Shown here one piece after another: positions 1 to 11,321 of a DNA stretch of 11,321 nt. The stretch comes from a virus (lineage: Duplodnaviria > Heunggongvirae > Uroviricota > Caudoviricetes), in IMG/VR virus record IMGVR_UViG_2671180814_000016; one strand, 5' to 3'. Below the pieces are notes generated by a model. That model saw only the letters and a list, made by a program, of their open reading frames with translations. It did not search any database and had not been told where the DNA came from. The position numbers were made by a program, and so were the translations under genes. Position 1 is the first letter of the stretch; each line of letters begins with the position of its first letter.

Positions 1-1494
<1,494 letters not shown>

Positions 1495-3352: not shown

Positions 3353-3904
3353 TTATCCTATTAATTTTTCACATTGCTCAAAACGCATTGGCCTGAACTC
3401 TCCCTGTACCGCCCATACACCGGCCTCTCTGAGAATTGGGTAATACGTTTTATCTCTGACGGGTACGATCACCTTCTCGCAGTACTGGCGAATGCTTTTT
3501 ATGAGTACTGGAAAGATCAGACGGTCAATGTTCTCTTCTGTGTACCTTCTATTTAATCGGGCAACCTCGAAATCACCTGTAACCAGAGGAATAGCAGAAC
3601 CACCATGTACACCGAGATCATCAAGCCACTGCTGGTTATGTACTTTCATATCCCTTGTCATCTGCCGAAGGAATGGTAAGTACTCGTATGGTTCACCACG
3701 GCCAGTAGTAATCACACAATACAAACCGTTATCCCTGAACCATGCCGCCTTGCTTTCAATAAGCATTAGTTGCCCATGAAGTACTTCTTCTTCCCATAGG
3801 CCGATCTGCCTGATTCCCTCGCGTTCTACATGGCTGACCAACTCAACCCCCAGCAACTGACCACCCAAACTTGTTATCGGTATTGCCCAATTATCAATGT
3901 TCAT
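3353..3904 (-). CDS. EAL-domain-like protein, probably catalytically degenerate (YdiV/PdeH-like motif order), 183 aa
   Basis: Motifs in EAL order and spacing: AIPITSLGGQLLGVELVSH (EAL box as ELV, Arg missing), QWLDDLGVHGG (DDFGTG-like), RQYCEKVIVPVRD (where EGVE is expected, substituted), AVQGEF (QG[YW]F-like). About 55 aa shorter than a canonical EAL domain. Assigned from recalled family motifs, not a search. Confidence 0.55.
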   Translation of the reverse strand: MNIDNWAIPITSLGGQLLGVELVSHVEREGIRQIGLWEEEVLHGQLMLIESKAAWFRDNGLYCVITTGRGEPYEYLPFLRQMTRDMKVHNQQWLDDLGVHGGSAIPLVTGDFEVARLNRRYTEENIDRLIFPVLIKSIRQYCEKVIVPVRDKTYYPILREAGVWAVQGEFRPMRFEQCEKLIG

Positions 3905-4540: not shown

Positions 4541-5209
4541 ATGGATTGTAGAAAATTAAATATCGTTCTTTTATCGACCGTAGCAGTATTACTGGTTGTT
4601 GTAATTTTAGTACTAATAAAATCACTCTTTGTTGGTTCTGAAGGTTTCGAGTGGGGATCGGTTAGTGACTGGGTTAGTTCTATTGCCAATCTCATTATGG
4701 CTGGAGCAGCCCTATATGCAGCATGGAACGCTAAAAATTGGTTTCAAACTAAAATAAAGGAAAATGCTTTAAATCAAGTTACTAAGTTCTGGACTAATTG
4801 CGATCTTTTTTCGTTGGAGATGTTGAAAACATATGAAAATATATGCAACCTTAACAATACTGAACCAGATATAGAACCAAAAAATTTCGCACATTTAGTT
4901 AAAACTGAACGAGAAGTTATCGATCTATTAAACATTAAGTTAGCCTCATTAAAAAGCGAATTGCAATCACTTACCTTTTGGAAAGTATCGCCAAAAGATG
5001 AAGCTATATTCAATAATTATTTCTTCAGTAATCAAATTGCTTTAGGAACATTGAGGGAAGCGATAAGTTTTGATATAAATGACATTCATGATAGATATCA
5101 TTACAATGTCAGCTATGGAAAGTTATTAGTAGATACATTTGATAGTTTAATAGAAGCACATGCAACCTTGAAAAAGGACATGAATAACTTATTCGTTTTC
5201 TCTAATTAG
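4541..5209 (+). CDS. Membrane protein: two N-terminal TM helices plus ~150-aa soluble domain, unknown function
   Basis: 222-aa ORF with ATG start; weak SD (AGGA 10 nt upstream). TM segments LNIVLLSTVAVLLVVVILVLI and VSSIANLIMAGAALYAAW. Very AT-rich and nearly devoid of GTAC, unlike flanking DNA. Confidence 0.6.
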   Translation: MDCRKLNIVLLSTVAVLLVVVILVLIKSLFVGSEGFEWGSVSDWVSSIANLIMAGAALYAAWNAKNWFQTKIKENALNQVTKFWTNCDLFSLEMLKTYENICNLNNTEPDIEPKNFAHLVKTEREVIDLLNIKLASLKSELQSLTFWKVSPKDEAIFNNYFFSNQIALGTLREAISFDINDIHDRYHYNVSYGKLLVDTFDSLIEAHATLKKDMNNLFVFSN

Positions 5210-5248: not shown

Positions 5249-5385
5249 CTATAACTAACATCTCAACATTAAGATTTATAAGGTCTTCATTAAAGTACTC
5301 CCCCTTTCGTACCTCCTATATAAATAGAGGAAGTAATATATATCACCATCGTAGGTGTTAAATTCCATTCTTATCATCTCGTAAA

Positions 5386-5427
5386 CCCTATAGTGGGTTA
5401 GTAGTTCTAACCCTCAATCTATAGTGG
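5386..5427. repeat. Hairpin GGGTTAG-tagtt-CTAACCC (5395..5413) bracketed by direct repeats CTATAGTGG (5388..5396, 5419..5427)
   Basis: Read directly in the convergent intergenic region 5210..5465. The 7-bp stem arms are exact reverse complements; the 9-bp direct repeat is exact. Confidence 0.4.
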
Positions 5428-5465
5428 CATCTAACATTTACCTTACATTCCAAAAAATATTATTC

Positions 5466-5939
5466 TTAAGTCTTTTTATCTTGCTTAAGTAATGCAATGA
5501 GTCTGTGAGAGTTAGGGATTTTATGTTCATTCCCCTCCACATCTAAAATAGTTATATCTTCTAAATGACAAATATCACATTCATTATCTATCGTGACTAA
5601 GTCTGAGCTTACCAATTCAAATTTTTTTCTTTGCTTTTCTTTAATAACAATGCTCTCTTTTGGAGATGAATGGCTCCTAATGCCTTTTTCATAATGGCAA
5701 AGCATCCCTTCCAAAACTGCATCACGCCTACCAACATTGATCACTATCACCTCGATTTTATAAGGTTCCTCATCAAAAGACTCGTAGACGAGGTCAGCTG
5801 TTATTTTTAGCCTTGATCTATCATGCCATGCTGCCCTACCGGAGAAGTATAAGGAAGTACATGCAATAATAAATGACAACGCCGAAAAAGCAATAGTTAA
5901 CACATCTTTATATGTAGCTGCTATTGTTGTTATGCTCAT
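5466..5939 (-). CDS. Membrane-anchored protein (one N-terminal TM helix), unknown function
   Basis: 157-aa ORF with ATG start. TM segment LTIAFSALSFIIACTSLYF. Follows the HNH gene on the same strand after an 82-bp gap. AT-rich and GTAC-poor. Confidence 0.55.
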   Translation of the reverse strand: MSITTIAATYKDVLTIAFSALSFIIACTSLYFSGRAAWHDRSRLKITADLVYESFDEEPYKIEVIVINVGRRDAVLEGMLCHYEKGIRSHSSPKESIVIKEKQRKKFELVSSDLVTIDNECDICHLEDITILDVEGNEHKIPNSHRLIALLKQDKKT

Positions 5940-6021
5940 TTTTCTCTCAACTTACATGTCTAATTTAAAGCATATTGTATTCATAACTTTTCAAGTATGT
6001 CGTATCAAGTCTAAAATAAAT

Positions 6022-6765
6022 TCAAATTTTATTGCTGTCTTTAAACAACAGTGCTTTTAAACTTTCGACACTTAATACTTCGTTACCGCGATGTACCATT
6101 GCGTGACAGTTTGGACAAAGTGGAACCATATCAGTAATTGGATTTACCTCGTAATCCTCGCCTACTGTGTGTAGCGGTTTGATATGATGAACGTGTATAA
6201 AGCCCTTGGCGTGTTCACCATAGACTTTCTCAAAGTTAAACTCACAACACCCGCAGGAAGTACCATGATGGTCAATACAAGCCTGTCGTGCTTTTGGATC
6301 ACGCTCGTAGGAGTTTACTGTAACTTGCTTTTTTGCACCCTCAGCGTAGTTTTCAGGTGAGGTAATTTCATCTGGAAATGGATTAGGTAAAAAGTCTGCA
6401 TACCAAACTGTTCCTTCTTTCCGAAGGTAACGTTTTTCAAGTTTTGGAGTGAACCGTTTGATAACAGCTACATCTCTATTCTCATCGTTTCGTCCCTGCT
6501 CCATATCAAACGTGTAAAGCTCATAACCTTCAGCTATCAATTGAATGTGTTCAATAGCTTGAATATATCCAAGATTTTTTCTTTCCTTTCCCTCCACAAC
6601 TTTGGTTTTCCACCGCTCCCTCAGAATGACTGATCTTTCTTGCTCTTTTTGTACATCCCATGCACCAAAGATAACCATTTTCTTGTCGTGGTTCACAAAT
6701 GACCAACTCCAAGTCCAGTTACTACAAGTAGCACCATGCGACTGGATGAATTGTTTTCTGTTCAT
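6022..6765 (-). CDS. McrA-like zinc-finger HNH nuclease with an unassigned ~170-aa N-terminal domain
   Basis: 247-aa ORF with ATG start and strong RBS GAGAGGGA. C-terminus CGCCEFNFEKVYGEHAKGFIHVHHIKPLHTVGEDYEVNPITDMVPLCPNCHAMVH matches the CxxC...HH...N...CPNCH..H pattern of McrA-type HNH domains as recalled from E. coli McrA. The N-terminal region matches no domain I can name. Confidence 0.8.
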   Translation of the reverse strand: MNRKQFIQSHGATCSNWTWSWSFVNHDKKMVIFGAWDVQKEQERSVILRERWKTKVVEGKERKNLGYIQAIEHIQLIAEGYELYTFDMEQGRNDENRDVAVIKRFTPKLEKRYLRKEGTVWYADFLPNPFPDEITSPENYAEGAKKQVTVNSYERDPKARQACIDHHGTSCGCCEFNFEKVYGEHAKGFIHVHHIKPLHTVGEDYEVNPITDMVPLCPNCHAMVHRGNEVLSVESLKALLFKDSNKI

Positions 6766-6955
6766 GGTATCCCTCTCTTAATTCCCTCTTTGTACACAAA
6801 AAATGCCTACTTGATCCAGTACTTTATGTAGCTATCCAATAGCATCATAGTAGTGGAAATGACCAGAGCGAGAGTTGTGGAACTGGCGGGGCATGTCGTA
6901 CTTACCAATTCACTTTAGGTACTTCATTTGCTGTACTAACATCTATCGAGCAAAG

Positions 6956-7052
6956 CGAGTAGTAACGCCTTGCGGGTTTTCGAGTACTGGCGAGAAAAAC
7001 GCAACGTTACTAACCAATACTACGAGGAGTTCACGACGAGTAGTATTCGTGA
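6956..7052. other. Structured non-coding segment: imperfect 13-bp hairpin (6960..7012), nested stems ATACTAC/GTAGTAT and TCACGA/TCGTGA, and 9-bp direct repeat CGAGTAGTA (6956..6964, 7037..7045)
   Basis: Read directly inside the 463-bp gap between the 7229..7690 gene and the HNH gene. The only ORF here (6875..7135, plus) has a TTG start, no RBS and implausible composition. Confidence 0.4.
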
Positions 7053-7136
7053 CGCAAGTCACAGTTTCTTGGAATACTGATAGAGAAAGAAATACATGGA
7101 ATGAAATGGAATGGATTTCGTATCTCTATACTTAGT

Positions 7137-7220
7137 TGCCGTATTGATGGTAAATAGCGGGTTTCAGGGGCTTTTTTTGCCGTATTACGGCATACATCCA
7201 TGCCGTAATATGCCGTAATA
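7137..7220. repeat. Iteron-like array: five copies of TGCCGTA core — 7137..7143 (direct), 7178..7192 (15-bp palindrome TGCCGTA-T-TACGGCA), 7201..7210 and 7211..7220 (exact tandem TGCCGTAATA x2)
   Basis: Read directly. A T7 run (7172..7178) abuts the palindrome. The tandem copies have 10-bp periodicity. Located just 3' of the 7229..7690 gene and ~370 bp 5' of the HNH gene. Confidence 0.6.
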
Positions 7221-7228
7221 AGTTACAA

Positions 7229-7784: not shown

Positions 7785-7815
7785 ATGCCAGTACTGGAAT
7801 ACTGGCATTTTTTAT
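7785..7815. terminator. Hairpin ATGCCAGTA-ctggaa-TACTGGCAT followed by T-run ATTTTTTAT on the plus strand; possible bidirectional terminator at the 3' end of the HNH homing endonuclease gene
   Basis: Stem arms are exact reverse complements and contain the palindrome CCAGTACTGG. The U-run is strong in plus orientation and weak in minus orientation. The T-run overlaps the minus-strand stop codon of the 7812..8366 gene. Confidence 0.45.
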
Positions 7816-8366
7816 GGTTTACGTTGAATGGTTAGGCTTTGTATTCTTTGTCTTTGCTTATTCGTAAGATATGTTGTGTACCATTTTGAATAGGTAGTAC
7901 CTTTGAATAACTTACCTATATTCTGAGGGCAAATATTAATACCAGTTTGATTTAAAAACCATTTAGTGATTGCATATTGAGATAATTGTCCTTTAAGGTA
8001 CTCTCCAACAATCATTAACCATTGCTTTAGAGTAAGCTTTTGAGTACGAGTACCTTTATGCTTTCTATTGGAATTATTAACCTTCTGAGTTACCCAACGT
8101 AAATTTTTTGCTTTGTTATTCATTTTATCGCGGTCGATATGATCTACAGTGTATCTTCCTCCAATGGGTTTAGCACCATTGAATAAAGTACAAACCAAAA
8201 CATGTACATATAGTGATTTGCCATTAATAGAAACTTTTTTGTATCCATTAGATGGGTTTTTCGTAGCTATATACTGTTTTGTTTTATCATTGTAAACATC
8301 GCCATTTTCAGATACGTAGTAATGTTTTGAATTTGGAATTAATCTCCAAGTGATTTTAGGGTTCAT
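7812..8366 (-). CDS. HNH homing endonuclease (HNH_3 / NUMOD4-type) with probable C-terminal DNA-binding region
   Basis: 184-aa ORF with ATG start and RBS AAGGA 8 nt upstream. N-terminal W.LIP....YYVSENGDVY (NUMOD4-like), then YVHVLVCTLFNG...VDHIDRDKMNNKAKNLRWVTQKVN, typical of free-standing phage HNH homing endonucleases. Confidence 0.8.
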   Translation of the reverse strand: MNPKITWRLIPNSKHYYVSENGDVYNDKTKQYIATKNPSNGYKKVSINGKSLYVHVLVCTLFNGAKPIGGRYTVDHIDRDKMNNKAKNLRWVTQKVNNSNRKHKGTRTQKLTLKQWLMIVGEYLKGQLSQYAITKWFLNQTGINICPQNIGKLFKGTTYSKWYTTYLTNKQRQRIQSLTIQRKP

Positions 8367-10033: not shown

Positions 10034-11321
10034 TTAATCCATCCAATCAATCATATCTTCATTAACAATGATCTCAAATTTTTCACGCTTGAGAAGATTA
10101 AGATACAATCCAACATCATCAAGTATTTTGGTACGGCTAATGGCAAGCGACCACATATCAGTACCAGATGTAACGGAGGCAATGAAAACGGTTTTGCCCT
10201 CTTCATTGACAGTGTAGACACGCTCGCCGCTTGTTTCAGAGATTACGATCTCATGTAGTACTTCACCCCCGCCCCGCTTGTTATCAATCACAAGCGTATG
10301 GGATAGGACATCATTGAAGTATTCCAACTGTACAAATATACGCTTTTCAAAAACCCAGTACTTAACAGATTTCAGTACTAATCTTACTTCTTTCCGTAAC
10401 TTTGCACGTAACTCGACATTCAATGGATCAAGTACTTTATTAATATCGAAATCAAATACAGGGATTTCTTTGATGTTCTTTGAATTTAATATCTCAGATT
10501 CTATTTCTTCAATTCTATCCTGTACCTCAGTTAAACCCGTCATTAATGGTAACGAGGCTTTCTTACCTGCTGCCTTACGTTCATTAATTTTAACCTGATA
10601 GGTTTCTGCCTCTTTCTGTAAAGTACTTAACTCTTCTCGCAATGATGCAAGCAATGAATCTGAATCCGACTTACCTTCCATCATCAATTTATTGAAGTCT
10701 ACATTTTTGACAAGCTGTAGAATGTTCTTTTCAATTCTCATGTACTGGATAGATTTAGCATCGCAGATCTTCTTTTCTTCCCTGTTACGACAAATAACAT
10801 ACTTAGTTCGTACATGATTATAGTGAATTGCAATATTGCCCCCACAGTGACCGCATTTCAGCATCTTCGGGAAGAGGTTAGTAATGTAATCATCCTGAGC
10901 AATGGTAATGTCCTTACGGATACGATTAGCTATACCATTCCGCGATAACTTCTCATTAGCCCGTTCAAAGGTGAGGTTATCGATAATCTTCATGGTAACT
11001 ACTTTCTTATCACGTAGTACCCTCAGTACATTGACGGTACTCCACCCTTTCGGCAAGCGTTTTACAATCGCCCCTGAACCAAGGCCTGTCTCATAAAGTT
11101 TAAAAATCTCTCGGACAACTTCTGGTTCAAGTAATAGATCCTCTGCTGGCTTCTTCTTCTCCAACATAACGCGATCCATCATTCTATTCGCTGTCAGGAA
11201 CAACTCTTCGTCGATGATTTTCGGGTAAACGTTTGGTACTACCTCACCGTTGTAACGTTCATGCTCGCCCAACAAACGGCGATCACGTATCTGAGGTGTA
11301 CTGGCAATAGCGGACACTACC
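10034..11321 (-). CDS. Large serine recombinase/integrase, C-terminal ~428 residues; 5' end (catalytic resolvase domain) beyond the right edge
   Basis: Frame is open to the window edge; the ORF-track start at 11317 is a GTG and probably not the true start. Contains recombinase-domain-like segments (YPKIIDEELF, EPEVVREIFKLYETGLGSGAIVKRL), a zinc-ribbon motif (CGHCGG...C..C) and a coiled-coil-like stretch (LREELSTLQKEAETYQVKINERK), the architecture of large serine recombinases. Confidence 0.65.
   Translation of the reverse strand, partial: VVSAIASTPQIRDRRLLGEHERYNGEVVPNVYPKIIDEELFLTANRMMDRVMLEKKKPAEDLLLEPEVVREIFKLYETGLGSGAIVKRLPKGWSTVNVLRVLRDKKVVTMKIIDNLTFERANEKLSRNGIANRIRKDITIAQDDYITNLFPKMLKCGHCGGNIAIHYNHVRTKYVICRNREEKKICDAKSIQYMRIEKNILQLVKNVDFNKLMMEGKSDSDSLLASLREELSTLQKEAETYQVKINERKAAGKKASLPLMTGLTEVQDRIEEIESEILNSKNIKEIPVFDFDINKVLDPLNVELRAKLRKEVRLVLKSVKYWVFEKRIFVQLEYFNDVLSHTLVIDNKRGGGEVLHEIVISETSGERVYTVNEEGKTVFIASVTSGTDMWSLAISRTKILDDVGLYLNLLKREKFEIIVNEDMIDWMD

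What the first reader, a model, noticed from the sequence alone, without database searches (positions are those of the whole stretch)
5466..6765. McrA-like HNH nuclease with an unassigned N-terminal domain, followed by a membrane-anchored partner
The C-terminal zinc-finger HNH is of the type found in modification-dependent (type IV) restriction enzymes. The ~170-aa N-terminal domain (WSWSF..., MVIFGAWD...) matches none of the modified-base readers I can recall (SRA, EVE/PUA, YTH). The gene is followed 82 bp later by a single-TM protein on the same strand. A modification-sensing nuclease with a novel reader domain and a membrane partner would be a plausible uncharacterised defence or anti-superinfection module.
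Basis: partly seen in the sequence, partly recalled or inferred. Interest (0 to 1): 0.6.

Follow-up and report, generated by a model that had tools for sequence, protein, structure and literature searches.

The report
Solitary McrA-like nuclease, new SRA-like reader
A Shigella sonnei prophage carries a stand-alone DNA-cutting enzyme of the kind that attacks chemically modified foreign DNA; its unannotated front half is a widespread, probably SRA-like sensor domain, and the membrane protein next door is an optional neighbour, not a partner.

Summary
Both ORFs exist as described: 6022-6765(-) 247 aa, 5466-5939(-) 157 aa, 82-bp gap. The C-terminal half is a McrA-type zinc-finger HNH with all catalytic and Zn residues intact.

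A profile search finds this domain in 314 clusters at 50% identity. It is fused to HNH, DUF3883/NOV_C and MUG113 nuclease domains. It also sits in tandem with EVE and DUF3427, in the same position EVE holds in VcaM4I and YenY4I. The gene is solitary across more than 10 phyla, has no cognate methyltransferase, and often lies among defence genes.

Best reading: an uncharacterised group of single-protein type IV restriction enzymes carried as prophage cargo.

The membrane "partner" is restricted to one Enterobacteriaceae prophage lineage. It is absent beside HNH genes that are 91-93% identical and diverges independently of the HNH, so it is a facultative neighbouring cassette.

Novelty: new variant of a known kind.

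The parts
6022..6765 (-). Complete gene for the 247-aa NTD-linker-HNH protein (stop codon 6022-6024)
   Evidence: ORF list. The N-terminus MNRKQF is conserved in homologs and a GAGGG lies 7 nt upstream of the ATG. There are 906 homolog clusters, full-length in more than 10 phyla.
6391..6765 (-). N-terminal domain, residues 1-125: Trp-rich putative modified-base reader (signature GATCxNWxWSWSF / FGAWD / W52 / Q69..H73 / GYxLxTF / W121-x-A123)
6301..6390 (-). Flexible linker, residues 126-155, containing the conserved PDE..P..Y.EGA.K motif that travels with the HNH module
   Evidence: pLDDT is below 50 at residues 140-152. The motif is conserved in A1. It is also present in HNH proteins that carry unrelated N-domains.
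6046..6300 (-). McrA-type beta-beta-alpha-Me (HNH) nuclease module, residues 156-240, with a CxxC...CxxC zinc site (C171, C174, C217, C220) and invariant H193, H194, N219, H221, H225
   Evidence: Pfam HNH E 3.3e-6. PADLOC mREase_IV E 4.7e-7. PDB EcoKMcrA 6ghc E 3.4e-5 and ScoMcrA 5zmm E 0.003, both with alignments. Invariant columns.
5940..6021 (-). 82-bp spacer between the HNH gene and the TM gene
   Evidence: No terminator-like site on the minus strand. Two weak promoter-like matches, not above shuffled expectation. The spacer is conserved only among loci with the HNH-TM arrangement. It is replaced by a 4-bp overlap in E. hormaechei.
5466..5939 (-). 157-aa single-pass membrane protein (TM helix at about residues 14-34, window 5838-5900; conserved NVGRRDAVLEG and EKQR motifs). 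A facultative neighbouring cassette, not a component of the nuclease system
   Evidence: Family alignment A4. Only 32 clusters, all Enterobacterales. No family or PDB match. Co-occurrence tests.
6766..7228 (-). 463-bp upstream intergenic region of the HNH gene; no consensus sigma-70 site found on the minus strand; inverted/direct TATTACGGCA repeats at 7171-7222

Best explanation
The 247-aa protein is a self-contained, single-polypeptide modification-dependent (type IV) restriction endonuclease carried as accessory cargo of a Shigella sonnei prophage.

Proposed mechanism:
- The N-terminal 125-aa domain is a highly diverged SRA/PUA-like beta-barrel. It is inferred to bind DNA and to accommodate a flipped-out modified base in a pocket lined by the invariant aromatic residues (W17, W19, W21, F23, W36, W52, F86, W121).
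- A flexible linker of about 30 aa tethers it to a McrA-type zinc-finger HNH domain, which cuts nearby, probably as a dimer as in EcoKMcrA.
- The host is Dam+ Dcm+ and the family is common in such enterobacteria. The target must therefore be something other than G6mATC or C5mCWGG, for example 5hmC or glucosyl-5hmC, 5mC in another context, or a phage hypermodified base.
- The benefit is protection of the lysogen from phages or plasmids carrying that modification.

Status of each step. Shown: gene integrity, HNH homology with an intact active site, a confidently folded N-domain, its modular distribution, and the solitary gene context without a methyltransferase. Inferred: SRA homology, base flipping, dependence on modification, dimerisation, and the phenotype.
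For: 1. The HNH is of McrA type. The PDB hits are 6ghc (E 3.4e-5) and 5zmm (E 0.003). PADLOC mREase_IV gives E 4.7e-7. The Zn cysteines and the H/N/H residues are invariant in 40 homologs.

3. The NTD is a mobile module found in 314 clusters at 50% identity. The architectures seen were:
- NTD-HNH
- EVE-NTD-HNH (P0191)
- NTD-EVE-HNH (P0213)
- EVE-NTD (P0172, P0201)
- NTD-NOV_C/DUF3883 (P0178, P0204)
- NTD-DUF3427-NOV_C (P0194)
- NTD-MUG113 (P0216)

These copy the EVE-HNH (VcaM4I/TspA15I) and PUA-DUF3427-DUF3883 (YenY4I) layouts of proven modification-dependent enzymes (PMC6765204). They also match the range of nucleases that EVE is fused to (PMC7641849).

4. The gene is solitary. In 55 loci, the 300 flanking ORFs form no cross-locus cluster larger than 4. 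Only 1 of 148 neighbours is a DNA methyltransferase. The neighbours do include OLD/AAA_15, BrxC, EcoRII-C, NERD, integrases and TA genes.

5. Conservation is full-length across Proteobacteria, Verrucomicrobiota, Bacteroidota, Planctomycetota, Chloroflexota, Acidobacteriota and others, which implies frequent horizontal transfer.

6. The same HNH module is swapped onto at least 5 other N-domains, as expected for a modular sensor-nuclease class.
Against: - Foldseek finds nothing better than E 0.29, and its top hit is Hjc.
- No sequence or profile method links the NTD to SRA, EVE or any Pfam family.
- I could not inspect model coordinates, so the placement of conserved aromatic residues in a base pocket is unverified.
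- No biochemical or phage data exist for any member that I could find.
- No consensus promoter was found upstream, so expression in the lysogen is unproven.
Confidence: 0.6

Rival explanations
1. Two-gene module. The HNH nuclease works together with the downstream membrane-anchored 157-aa protein, for example as a membrane tether at the DNA entry site, a regulator, or an immunity or effector partner.
For: The TM homolog lies directly downstream on the same strand at 78-82 bp in S. sonnei, E. ludwigii, E. cloacae, C. koseri and one MAG, and with a 4-bp overlap in E. hormaechei. There is no terminator between the genes. The TM family is almost never seen without this HNH nearby: 7 of 8 species contexts have it.
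Against: - The TM gene is absent from all 55 full-length HNH loci of other species, including 12 Enterobacterales.
- It is absent next to the closest HNH relatives (Kluyvera 91%, Enterobacter MAG 93%) within the same prophage type.
- In E. coli it follows an unrelated 227-aa gene, and the HNH lies 1.3 kb away.
- In Serratia it occurs without any HNH.
- HNH and TM identities are discordant (93/66, 90/61, 81/83, 73/58), which indicates independent cassette histories.
- The TM family has 32 clusters against more than 900 for the HNH.
Confidence: 0.12
2. The N-domain is not a modification reader. It is a degenerate PD-(D/E)XK/Hjc-like or otherwise structure-specific DNA-binding domain. The enzyme would then target branched or other unusual DNA, such as phage replication or recombination intermediates, irrespective of base modification.
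Against: - SRA-type hits outrank and outnumber the Hjc-type hits.
- There is no invariant acidic/lysine triad. The conserved residues are mostly aromatic.
- Repeated tandem fusion with EVE and DUF3427, and substitution for EVE in known enzyme layouts, points to modified-base sensing.
Confidence: 0.12
3. Ligand-gated abortive nuclease. The PUA-like N-domain senses a free modified nucleotide or other small danger signal produced during infection and then unleashes the HNH on all DNA, by analogy with the PUA-Cal-HAD system that binds m6-dAMP.
For: PUA-like domains can bind free modified nucleotides (PMC12871103 abstract). The NTD also occurs fused to a non-nuclease VWA domain (P0224), and some hits are only as long as the domain itself, which could be stand-alone forms or fragments.
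Against: The architecture mirrors DNA-binding type IV enzymes. There is no oligomerisation or signalling partner. Many of the short hits are probably contig fragments. There is no direct evidence for this reading.
Confidence: 0.07
4. A phage housekeeping HNH: either a terminase-associated packaging nuclease of the HK97 gp74 type, or a homing endonuclease.
For: The gene lies in a prophage between the integrase and the terminase genes. HNH nucleases are common in phages.
Against: - It is about 5 kb and more than 8 genes away from the small terminase gene.
- A separate HNH_3/NUMOD4 homing-type gene sits at 7812-8366.
- No full-length homolog exists in 50,697 phage genomes.
- Most family members sit in non-phage chromosomal or defence-island contexts.
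Confidence: 0.03

Closest known systems
EcoKMcrA (E. coli K-12, PDB 6ghc)
   Same: The C-terminal zinc-finger HNH module is the closest by sequence, including the preceding Y-x-R-D helix (E 3.4e-5, residues 141-229). The size is similar (277 vs 247 aa), as is the two-domain reader-linker-HNH layout. From my own knowledge, McrA is also prophage-borne (e14) in a Dam+ Dcm+ host.
SRA-HNH enzymes TagI (6ghs) and ScoMcrA (5zmm/5zmn)
   Different: There is no detectable sequence relationship to Pfam SAD_SRA. The NTD is much smaller (125 aa) and has its own Trp-rich signature. ScoMcrA additionally has a sulfur-binding domain and targets phosphorothioate DNA.
EVE-HNH enzymes VcaM4I / TspA15I and the EVE-DUF3427-DUF3883 enzyme YenY4I (Lutz et al. 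2019, PMC6765204)
   Same: The architecture is identical, with the NTD in the place of EVE: N-terminal sensor, short linker, C-terminal HNH. P0194 reproduces the YenY4I layout as NTD-DUF3427-DUF3883. The genes are not adjacent to methyltransferases.
   Different: The NTD is not an EVE domain (no PF01878 hit; hhalign probability 0.1%). In some relatives EVE and the NTD coexist in tandem, which implies they have non-redundant specificities.
SRA-like readers of PvuRts1I/AbaSI and MspJI/LpnPI/AspBHI
   Different: Those enzymes use PD-(D/E)XK-type catalytic domains and the opposite or a different domain order. There is no sequence similarity.

Membership tests
Type IV / modification-dependent restriction endonucleases (modular reader + nuclease) | Nuclease domain with intact catalytic and metal-binding residues | tested here: met
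   HNH PF01844 above the gathering score. C171/C174/C217/C220 and H193/H194/N219/H221/H225 are invariant in 40 homologs. The domain aligns to EcoKMcrA and ScoMcrA.
Type IV / modification-dependent restriction endonucleases (modular reader + nuclease) | A separate domain with a known modified-base reader fold | tested here: inconclusive
Type IV / modification-dependent restriction endonucleases (modular reader + nuclease) | The sensor domain is modular: it recurs with different nuclease domains and with other readers | tested here: met
   The NTD is fused to HNH, NOV_C/DUF3883 and MUG113. It sits in tandem with EVE in both orders and with DUF3427.
Type IV / modification-dependent restriction endonucleases (modular reader + nuclease) | No cognate protective methyltransferase encoded alongside | tested here: met
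   1 of 148 neighbouring proteins is an N6_Mtase. No flanking gene is conserved. None of the window ORFs scanned is a methyltransferase, and the unscanned ORFs are all under 150 aa.
Type IV / modification-dependent restriction endonucleases (modular reader + nuclease) | Cleavage depends on, or is stimulated by, a DNA modification; modified phage or plasmid is restricted | not testable with these tools
   This needs biochemistry and plaque or transformation assays. No published data were found.
EcoKMcrA family (NEco-HNH) | McrA-type HNH domain | tested here: met
   6ghc E 3.4e-5 and PADLOC PDLC03656 E 4.7e-7, both covering only residues 141-229.
EcoKMcrA family (NEco-HNH) | NEco N-terminal specificity domain | tested here: not met
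SRA-HNH enzymes (Pfam SAD_SRA PF02182 + HNH; TagI, ScoMcrA) | Sequence membership in SAD_SRA | tested here: not met
   There is no PF02182 hit, even at E up to 10, in any of 26 NTD sequences.
SRA-HNH enzymes (Pfam SAD_SRA PF02182 + HNH; TagI, ScoMcrA) | SRA fold with a base-flipping pocket | tested here: inconclusive
EVE-HNH enzymes (VcaM4I/TspA15I) | EVE domain PF01878 | tested here: not met
   The window protein has no EVE hit. hhalign of the NTD against EVE gives probability 0.1%. EVE is present only as an additional domain in relatives.
   0 of 55 other-species loci have the TM gene. It is absent next to HNH genes that are 91-93% identical, and the two genes diverge discordantly.
   The genes share a strand, with an 82-bp gap and no terminator. 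They overlap by 4 bp in E. hormaechei. In E. coli they are rearranged, and in Serratia the TM gene stands without the HNH.
Terminase-associated packaging HNH (HK97 gp74 type) | Adjacent to terminase genes and conserved in phage genomes | tested here: not met
   The gene is about 5 kb from the TerS-like gene at 350-895. There are 0 full-length matches in 50,697 phage records.

The most novel reading that the evidence does not exclude
The WSWSF domain is a previously unrecognised family of modified-base readers with a specificity not covered by known type IV enzymes. It must spare Dam and Dcm methylation, and it coexists in tandem with EVE in some proteins, which suggests a different ligand. Candidates are a glucosylated or otherwise hypermodified pyrimidine, a deazapurine, or a non-canonical methylation context. 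If so, it would be both a new layer of prophage-encoded immunity in Enterobacteriaceae and a new reagent for mapping that modification.
Probability: 0.25. Interest if true: 0.7.

Novelty: new variant of a known kind. Interest (0 to 1): 0.5.

Why it matters
Type IV restriction enzymes are modular, and each new reader domain has so far brought a new specificity: NEco, SRA, EVE, winged-helix, iEndoIII.

It is widespread: more than 900 clusters at 90% identity and 314 at 50%. It is combined with several nuclease types, yet it has no Pfam family, no solved structure and no assay. Public databases call these proteins only "HNH endonuclease".

Characterising it would add a defence gene that current defence-finding tools miss. 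It would also explain part of the prophage-conferred phage resistance of S. sonnei, E. coli, Enterobacter, Citrobacter and Klebsiella lysogens. It might also give a new enzyme for detecting DNA modifications.

It also shows that adjacency within a prophage moron region, as with the TM gene here, is weak evidence for a functional module.

Tried and rejected
**Source and close homologs**
- Megablast of 5300-7000 against phage and E. coli complete-genome collections gave no match. The source, S. sonnei, was found by exact-protein lookup instead.

**Sequence and fold searches on the NTD**
- Pfam, PHROGs, PADLOC and NCBIfam gave nothing for the NTD.
- A PDB profile search gave 0 hits.
- hhalign against EVE gave probability 0.1%.
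- Foldseek against PDB and BFVD gave nothing significant.
- The afdb50 library was unavailable.

**TM protein**
- No family hit and no credible PDB hit.

**Tests of the partner idea**
- I asked whether the alternative upstream neighbours of the TM gene (E. coli 227 aa, Serratia 470 aa) are cryptic NTD or HNH relatives, which would have suggested a shared TM effector with swappable sensors. They are not.
- I asked whether the TM gene carries its own conserved upstream region in all contexts. It does not; the region is conserved only where the HNH precedes it.

**Literature leads rejected**
- END nucleases use an iEndoIII sensor and are unrelated.
- Ambrosia AbrD belongs to a five-gene system whose context is not seen here.

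**Other**
- A packaging or homing role was rejected on context and distribution.
- One search was an empty script with no result.
Full report
**1. Observation**

The window contains ORF 6022-6765(-) of 247 aa and ORF 5466-5939(-) of 157 aa. They are on the same strand and 82 bp apart.

The exact 247-aa protein is recorded on 484 contigs, essentially all from the clonal species Shigella sonnei, for example strain 53G, HE616528.1 positions 1434428-1455171.

The region is the accessory (moron) part of a decayed prophage. It lies between a large serine integrase (window 10034-11317, cut by the window end) and a Nu1/TerS-like gene (350-895), with GpA-type terminase genes further on. Composition is unremarkable, at 32-41% GC.

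**2. The nuclease half**

Every library recognises residues of about 141-238, and only those residues:
- Pfam HNH, E 3.3e-6, above the gathering score.
- PADLOC mREase_IV models, E 4.7e-7 and 6e-6.
- PHROGs HNH families.
- PDB EcoKMcrA 6ghc (E 3.4e-5) and ScoMcrA 5zmm (E 0.003), with alignments covering the Y-E-R-D helix, the HH pair and the CPNCH motif.

In a 40-sequence alignment down to 47% identity, the four zinc cysteines (C171, C174, C217, C220) and H193, H194, N219, H221 and H225 are invariant. The description "McrA-like zinc-finger HNH" is therefore correct, and the enzyme is predicted to be active.

**3. The N-terminal half**

No sequence method assigns residues 1-140. Pfam was negative even at E up to 10 on 26 family members, and PHROGs, PADLOC, NCBIfam and a PDB profile search were also negative.

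The region is nevertheless the most conserved part of the protein. The invariant residues are R3, F6, S9, G11, C14, N16, W17, W19, S20, W21, S22, F23, F33, G34, W36, I47, W52, Q69, H73, L83, T85, F86, I102, W121 and A123.

AlphaFold2 gives the following:
- A compact alpha/beta domain at residues 1-125: pLDDT about 85-95 in the full-length model, and 89.8 with pTM 0.83 in the NTD-only model.
- A linker that is disordered at residues 140-152.
- The HNH domain.

The domain is thus about 125 aa, not about 170.

- Other PUA-like folds (YTH, Lon-N, RsmE-N) lie below these.

I treat "SRA/PUA-like" as probable but not proven.

**4. Independent evidence from domain architecture**

An HMM of the NTD, searched against 1.84 billion cluster representatives, finds 314 clusters at E up to 1e-3 and 230 at E up to 1e-10.

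Besides the canonical form of about 245 aa, the domain occurs in these arrangements:

| Architecture | Example(s) |
|---|---|
| EVE-NTD-HNH | P0191 |
| NTD-EVE-HNH | P0213 |
| EVE-NTD | P0172, P0201 |
| NTD-NOV_C | P0178, P0204 |
| NTD-DUF3427(weak)-NOV_C | P0194 |
| NTD-MUG113 | P0216 |
| VWA-NTD | P0224 |

. The Trp-rich signature is retained in all of them.

NOV_C is the former DUF3883, which Lutz et al. treat as the PD-(D/E)XK catalytic domain of YenY4I and McaZI (PMC6765204). MUG113 belongs to the GIY-YIG clan; this rests on my own knowledge of Pfam.

In Lutz et al., EVE-HNH enzymes (TspA15I/VcaM4I) and the PUA-DUF3427-DUF3883 enzyme YenY4I are experimentally 5mC/5hmC-dependent. Bell et al. 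catalogue EVE fused to PD-(D/E)XK, HNH, PLD and GIY-YIG nucleases (PMC7641849).

The NTD therefore occupies the same architectural slot as EVE, with a similar range of partner domains, and sometimes sits beside EVE. This is the strongest argument that it is a modified-base sensor.

Conversely, the HNH module of this family, including its PDE..EGA..VNxYERD linker, is found on at least five other unannotated N-domains in cyanobacteria, Sorangium and others, one of them DUF6009.

**5. Genomic behaviour**

A genome scan found 443 loci that encode relatives. Full-length copies occur in Gamma-, Alpha-, Beta- and Deltaproteobacteria, Verrucomicrobiota, Planctomycetota, Bacteroidota/Ignavibacteria/Chlorobi, Armatimonadota, Gemmatimonadota, Acidobacteriota, Chloroflexota and one Firmicute.

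In 55 full-length loci, the 300 ORFs within three genes either side form no cross-locus cluster larger than four. The gene is solitary.

A Pfam census of 148 immediate neighbours shows one N6 methyltransferase. The rest is a mix of mobile-element and defence markers:
- Phage_integrase: 5
- AAA_15/AAA_21: 5
- OLD TOPRIM: 3
- UvrD: 2
- BrxC, EcoRII-C, NERD, RhuM and addiction-module genes

No full-length homolog exists in 50,697 deposited phage genomes. Public annotation is only "HNH endonuclease", or from JGI "5-methylcytosine-specific restriction protein A".

**6. The membrane protein**

The 157-aa protein has one TM helix at about residues 14-34, followed by a basic stretch (R35, R41, R43, K45). 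By the positive-inside rule this suggests that the conserved C-terminal domain, with motifs NVGRRDAVLEG and EKQR, is cytoplasmic; this is an inference. It has no family or PDB match.

Its family is small, with 32 clusters, all Enterobacterales. It is confined to one prophage type, the one with a serine integrase and a GpA terminase.

Linkage is asymmetric.

The TM gene lies directly after the HNH in these genomes:

| Genome | Gap |
|---|---|
| S. sonnei | 82 bp |
| E. ludwigii | 78 bp |
| E. cloacae | 79 bp |
| C. koseri | 81 bp |
| One MAG | 80 bp |
| E. hormaechei | 4-bp overlap |

.

Exceptions:
- In E. coli it follows an unrelated tail-anchored 227-aa gene. The HNH lies 1.3 kb away and is abutted by a DUF6998-like gene.
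- In Serratia it occurs without any HNH.

In the other direction, none of the 55 other-species HNH loci has the TM gene, and that set includes 12 Enterobacterales. Nor do the two closest relatives of the S. sonnei HNH:
- In Kluyvera (91% identity, same prophage type) the downstream convergent 221-aa gene follows the HNH directly.
- The Enterobacter MAG L007 is 93% identical.

Divergence of the two genes is uncorrelated. HNH/TM identity to S. sonnei is 93/66 in C. koseri, 90/61 in E. hormaechei, 81/83 in E. ludwigii, 80/81 in E. cloacae, 73/58 in the MAG and 73/59 in E. coli.

The simplest reading is two independently exchanged cassettes occupying neighbouring slots of a prophage moron region. 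The HNH clearly functions without the TM protein. A lineage-specific accessory role for the TM protein cannot be excluded, and the overlap in E. hormaechei shows co-transcription is possible. I give that role about 12%.

**7. Mechanism proposed**

Shown:
- An intact McrA-type HNH.
- A confidently folded, strongly conserved N-domain joined by a flexible linker.
- Modular reuse of that domain with nucleases and with EVE/DUF3427.
- A solitary gene without a methyltransferase, often in defence or mobile contexts.

Inferred:
- The N-domain binds DNA and reads a modified base, probably by flipping it into an aromatic pocket as SRA domains do.
- The HNH then cleaves nearby, likely as a dimer, as the EcoKMcrA paper reports for that enzyme (PMC6182155 abstract).
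- The specificity excludes Dam and Dcm marks, because the hosts carry them.
- The prophage gains by protecting its lysogen from modified phages or plasmids. From my own knowledge, this parallels McrA on the e14 prophage.

**8. Verdict**

This is an uncharacterised group of type IV-like HNH enzymes. Its sensor is new at the family level but probably an SRA/PUA-like fold. The "membrane partner" is not part of the system.

Novelty: new variant of a known kind. Interest: moderate (0.5).

It would not overturn anything. It does identify a widespread, unannotated reader domain, worth a Pfam entry, that is directly testable and could carry a new specificity.

Noticed in passing
window 7812-8366 (-): A second, unrelated HNH gene of 184 aa. 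It has HNH_3 + NUMOD4 domains (PHROG 59, PADLOC HEase), which is the homing-endonuclease type, and lies two genes upstream of the finding.
   Followed up: partly
window 3353-3904 (-); L002/L003/L005 12862-15547: A 183-aa degenerate EAL-like protein. It gives a PdeL-like NCBIfam hit at E 2.7e-5, and its orthologs in Enterobacter prophages hit Pfam EAL. In several S. sonnei genomes it is split by an IS21-family (IstA/IstB) insertion.
   Followed up: partly
window 4541-5209 (+): A 222-aa protein with an N-terminal TM helix and no family hit. Diverged paralogs (221-228 aa) sit convergently next to the HNH/TM region in the E. ludwigii, E. coli, C. koseri and Kluyvera prophages. It is a second variable membrane-protein slot.
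   Followed up: partly
window 874-1494 (+): A 206-aa ORF with no family hit. Its sequence ('KVDLILRE...YIFIEFKC') resembles a PD-(D/E)XK D...ExK motif, followed by a Cys-rich C-terminus. It may be another nuclease next to the small terminase gene. This is unverified.
   Followed up: no
window 7171-7222: An inverted repeat (12 nt perfect: TATTACGGCATA / TATGCCGTAATA) together with a tandem direct repeat (ATGCCGTAAT x2), immediately downstream of the 153-aa ORF. It is flanked by a T7/A7 run and is not a canonical terminator for either strand.
   Followed up: partly
L091 6536-8243; L096 8965-10474; L106 8564-8735: Related prophages carry an mSLOG/DUF4326 - DUF488 - DuOB gene triad in the equivalent accessory region. 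This triad is absent from the S. sonnei window.
   Followed up: no
L087 7488-8279; L104 2304-3098: In the E. coli prophage a 263-aa DUF6998-like gene abuts the HNH stop codon, and a homolog lies two genes away in Kluyvera. It is another recurrent but non-universal neighbour of the HNH.
   Followed up: no
L067-L086 (e.g. L076 5464-6360, L081 5050-6366, L085 5041-6363): The same HNH module plus linker, 50-58% identical over residues 130-240, is fused to at least five other unannotated N-terminal domains in cyanobacteria, Sorangium and others (one is DUF6009). These are possibly further uncharacterised sensor domains.
   Followed up: partly
L001 and L006 vs L002-L005: S. sonnei genomes differ in what lies upstream of the HNH gene. 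In some, the integrase-side genes are replaced by IS1 and unrelated chromosomal genes. IS3 and IS21 copies interrupt the terminase region. Together these show ongoing IS-mediated decay of this prophage, while the HNH gene stays 100% identical.
   Followed up: no
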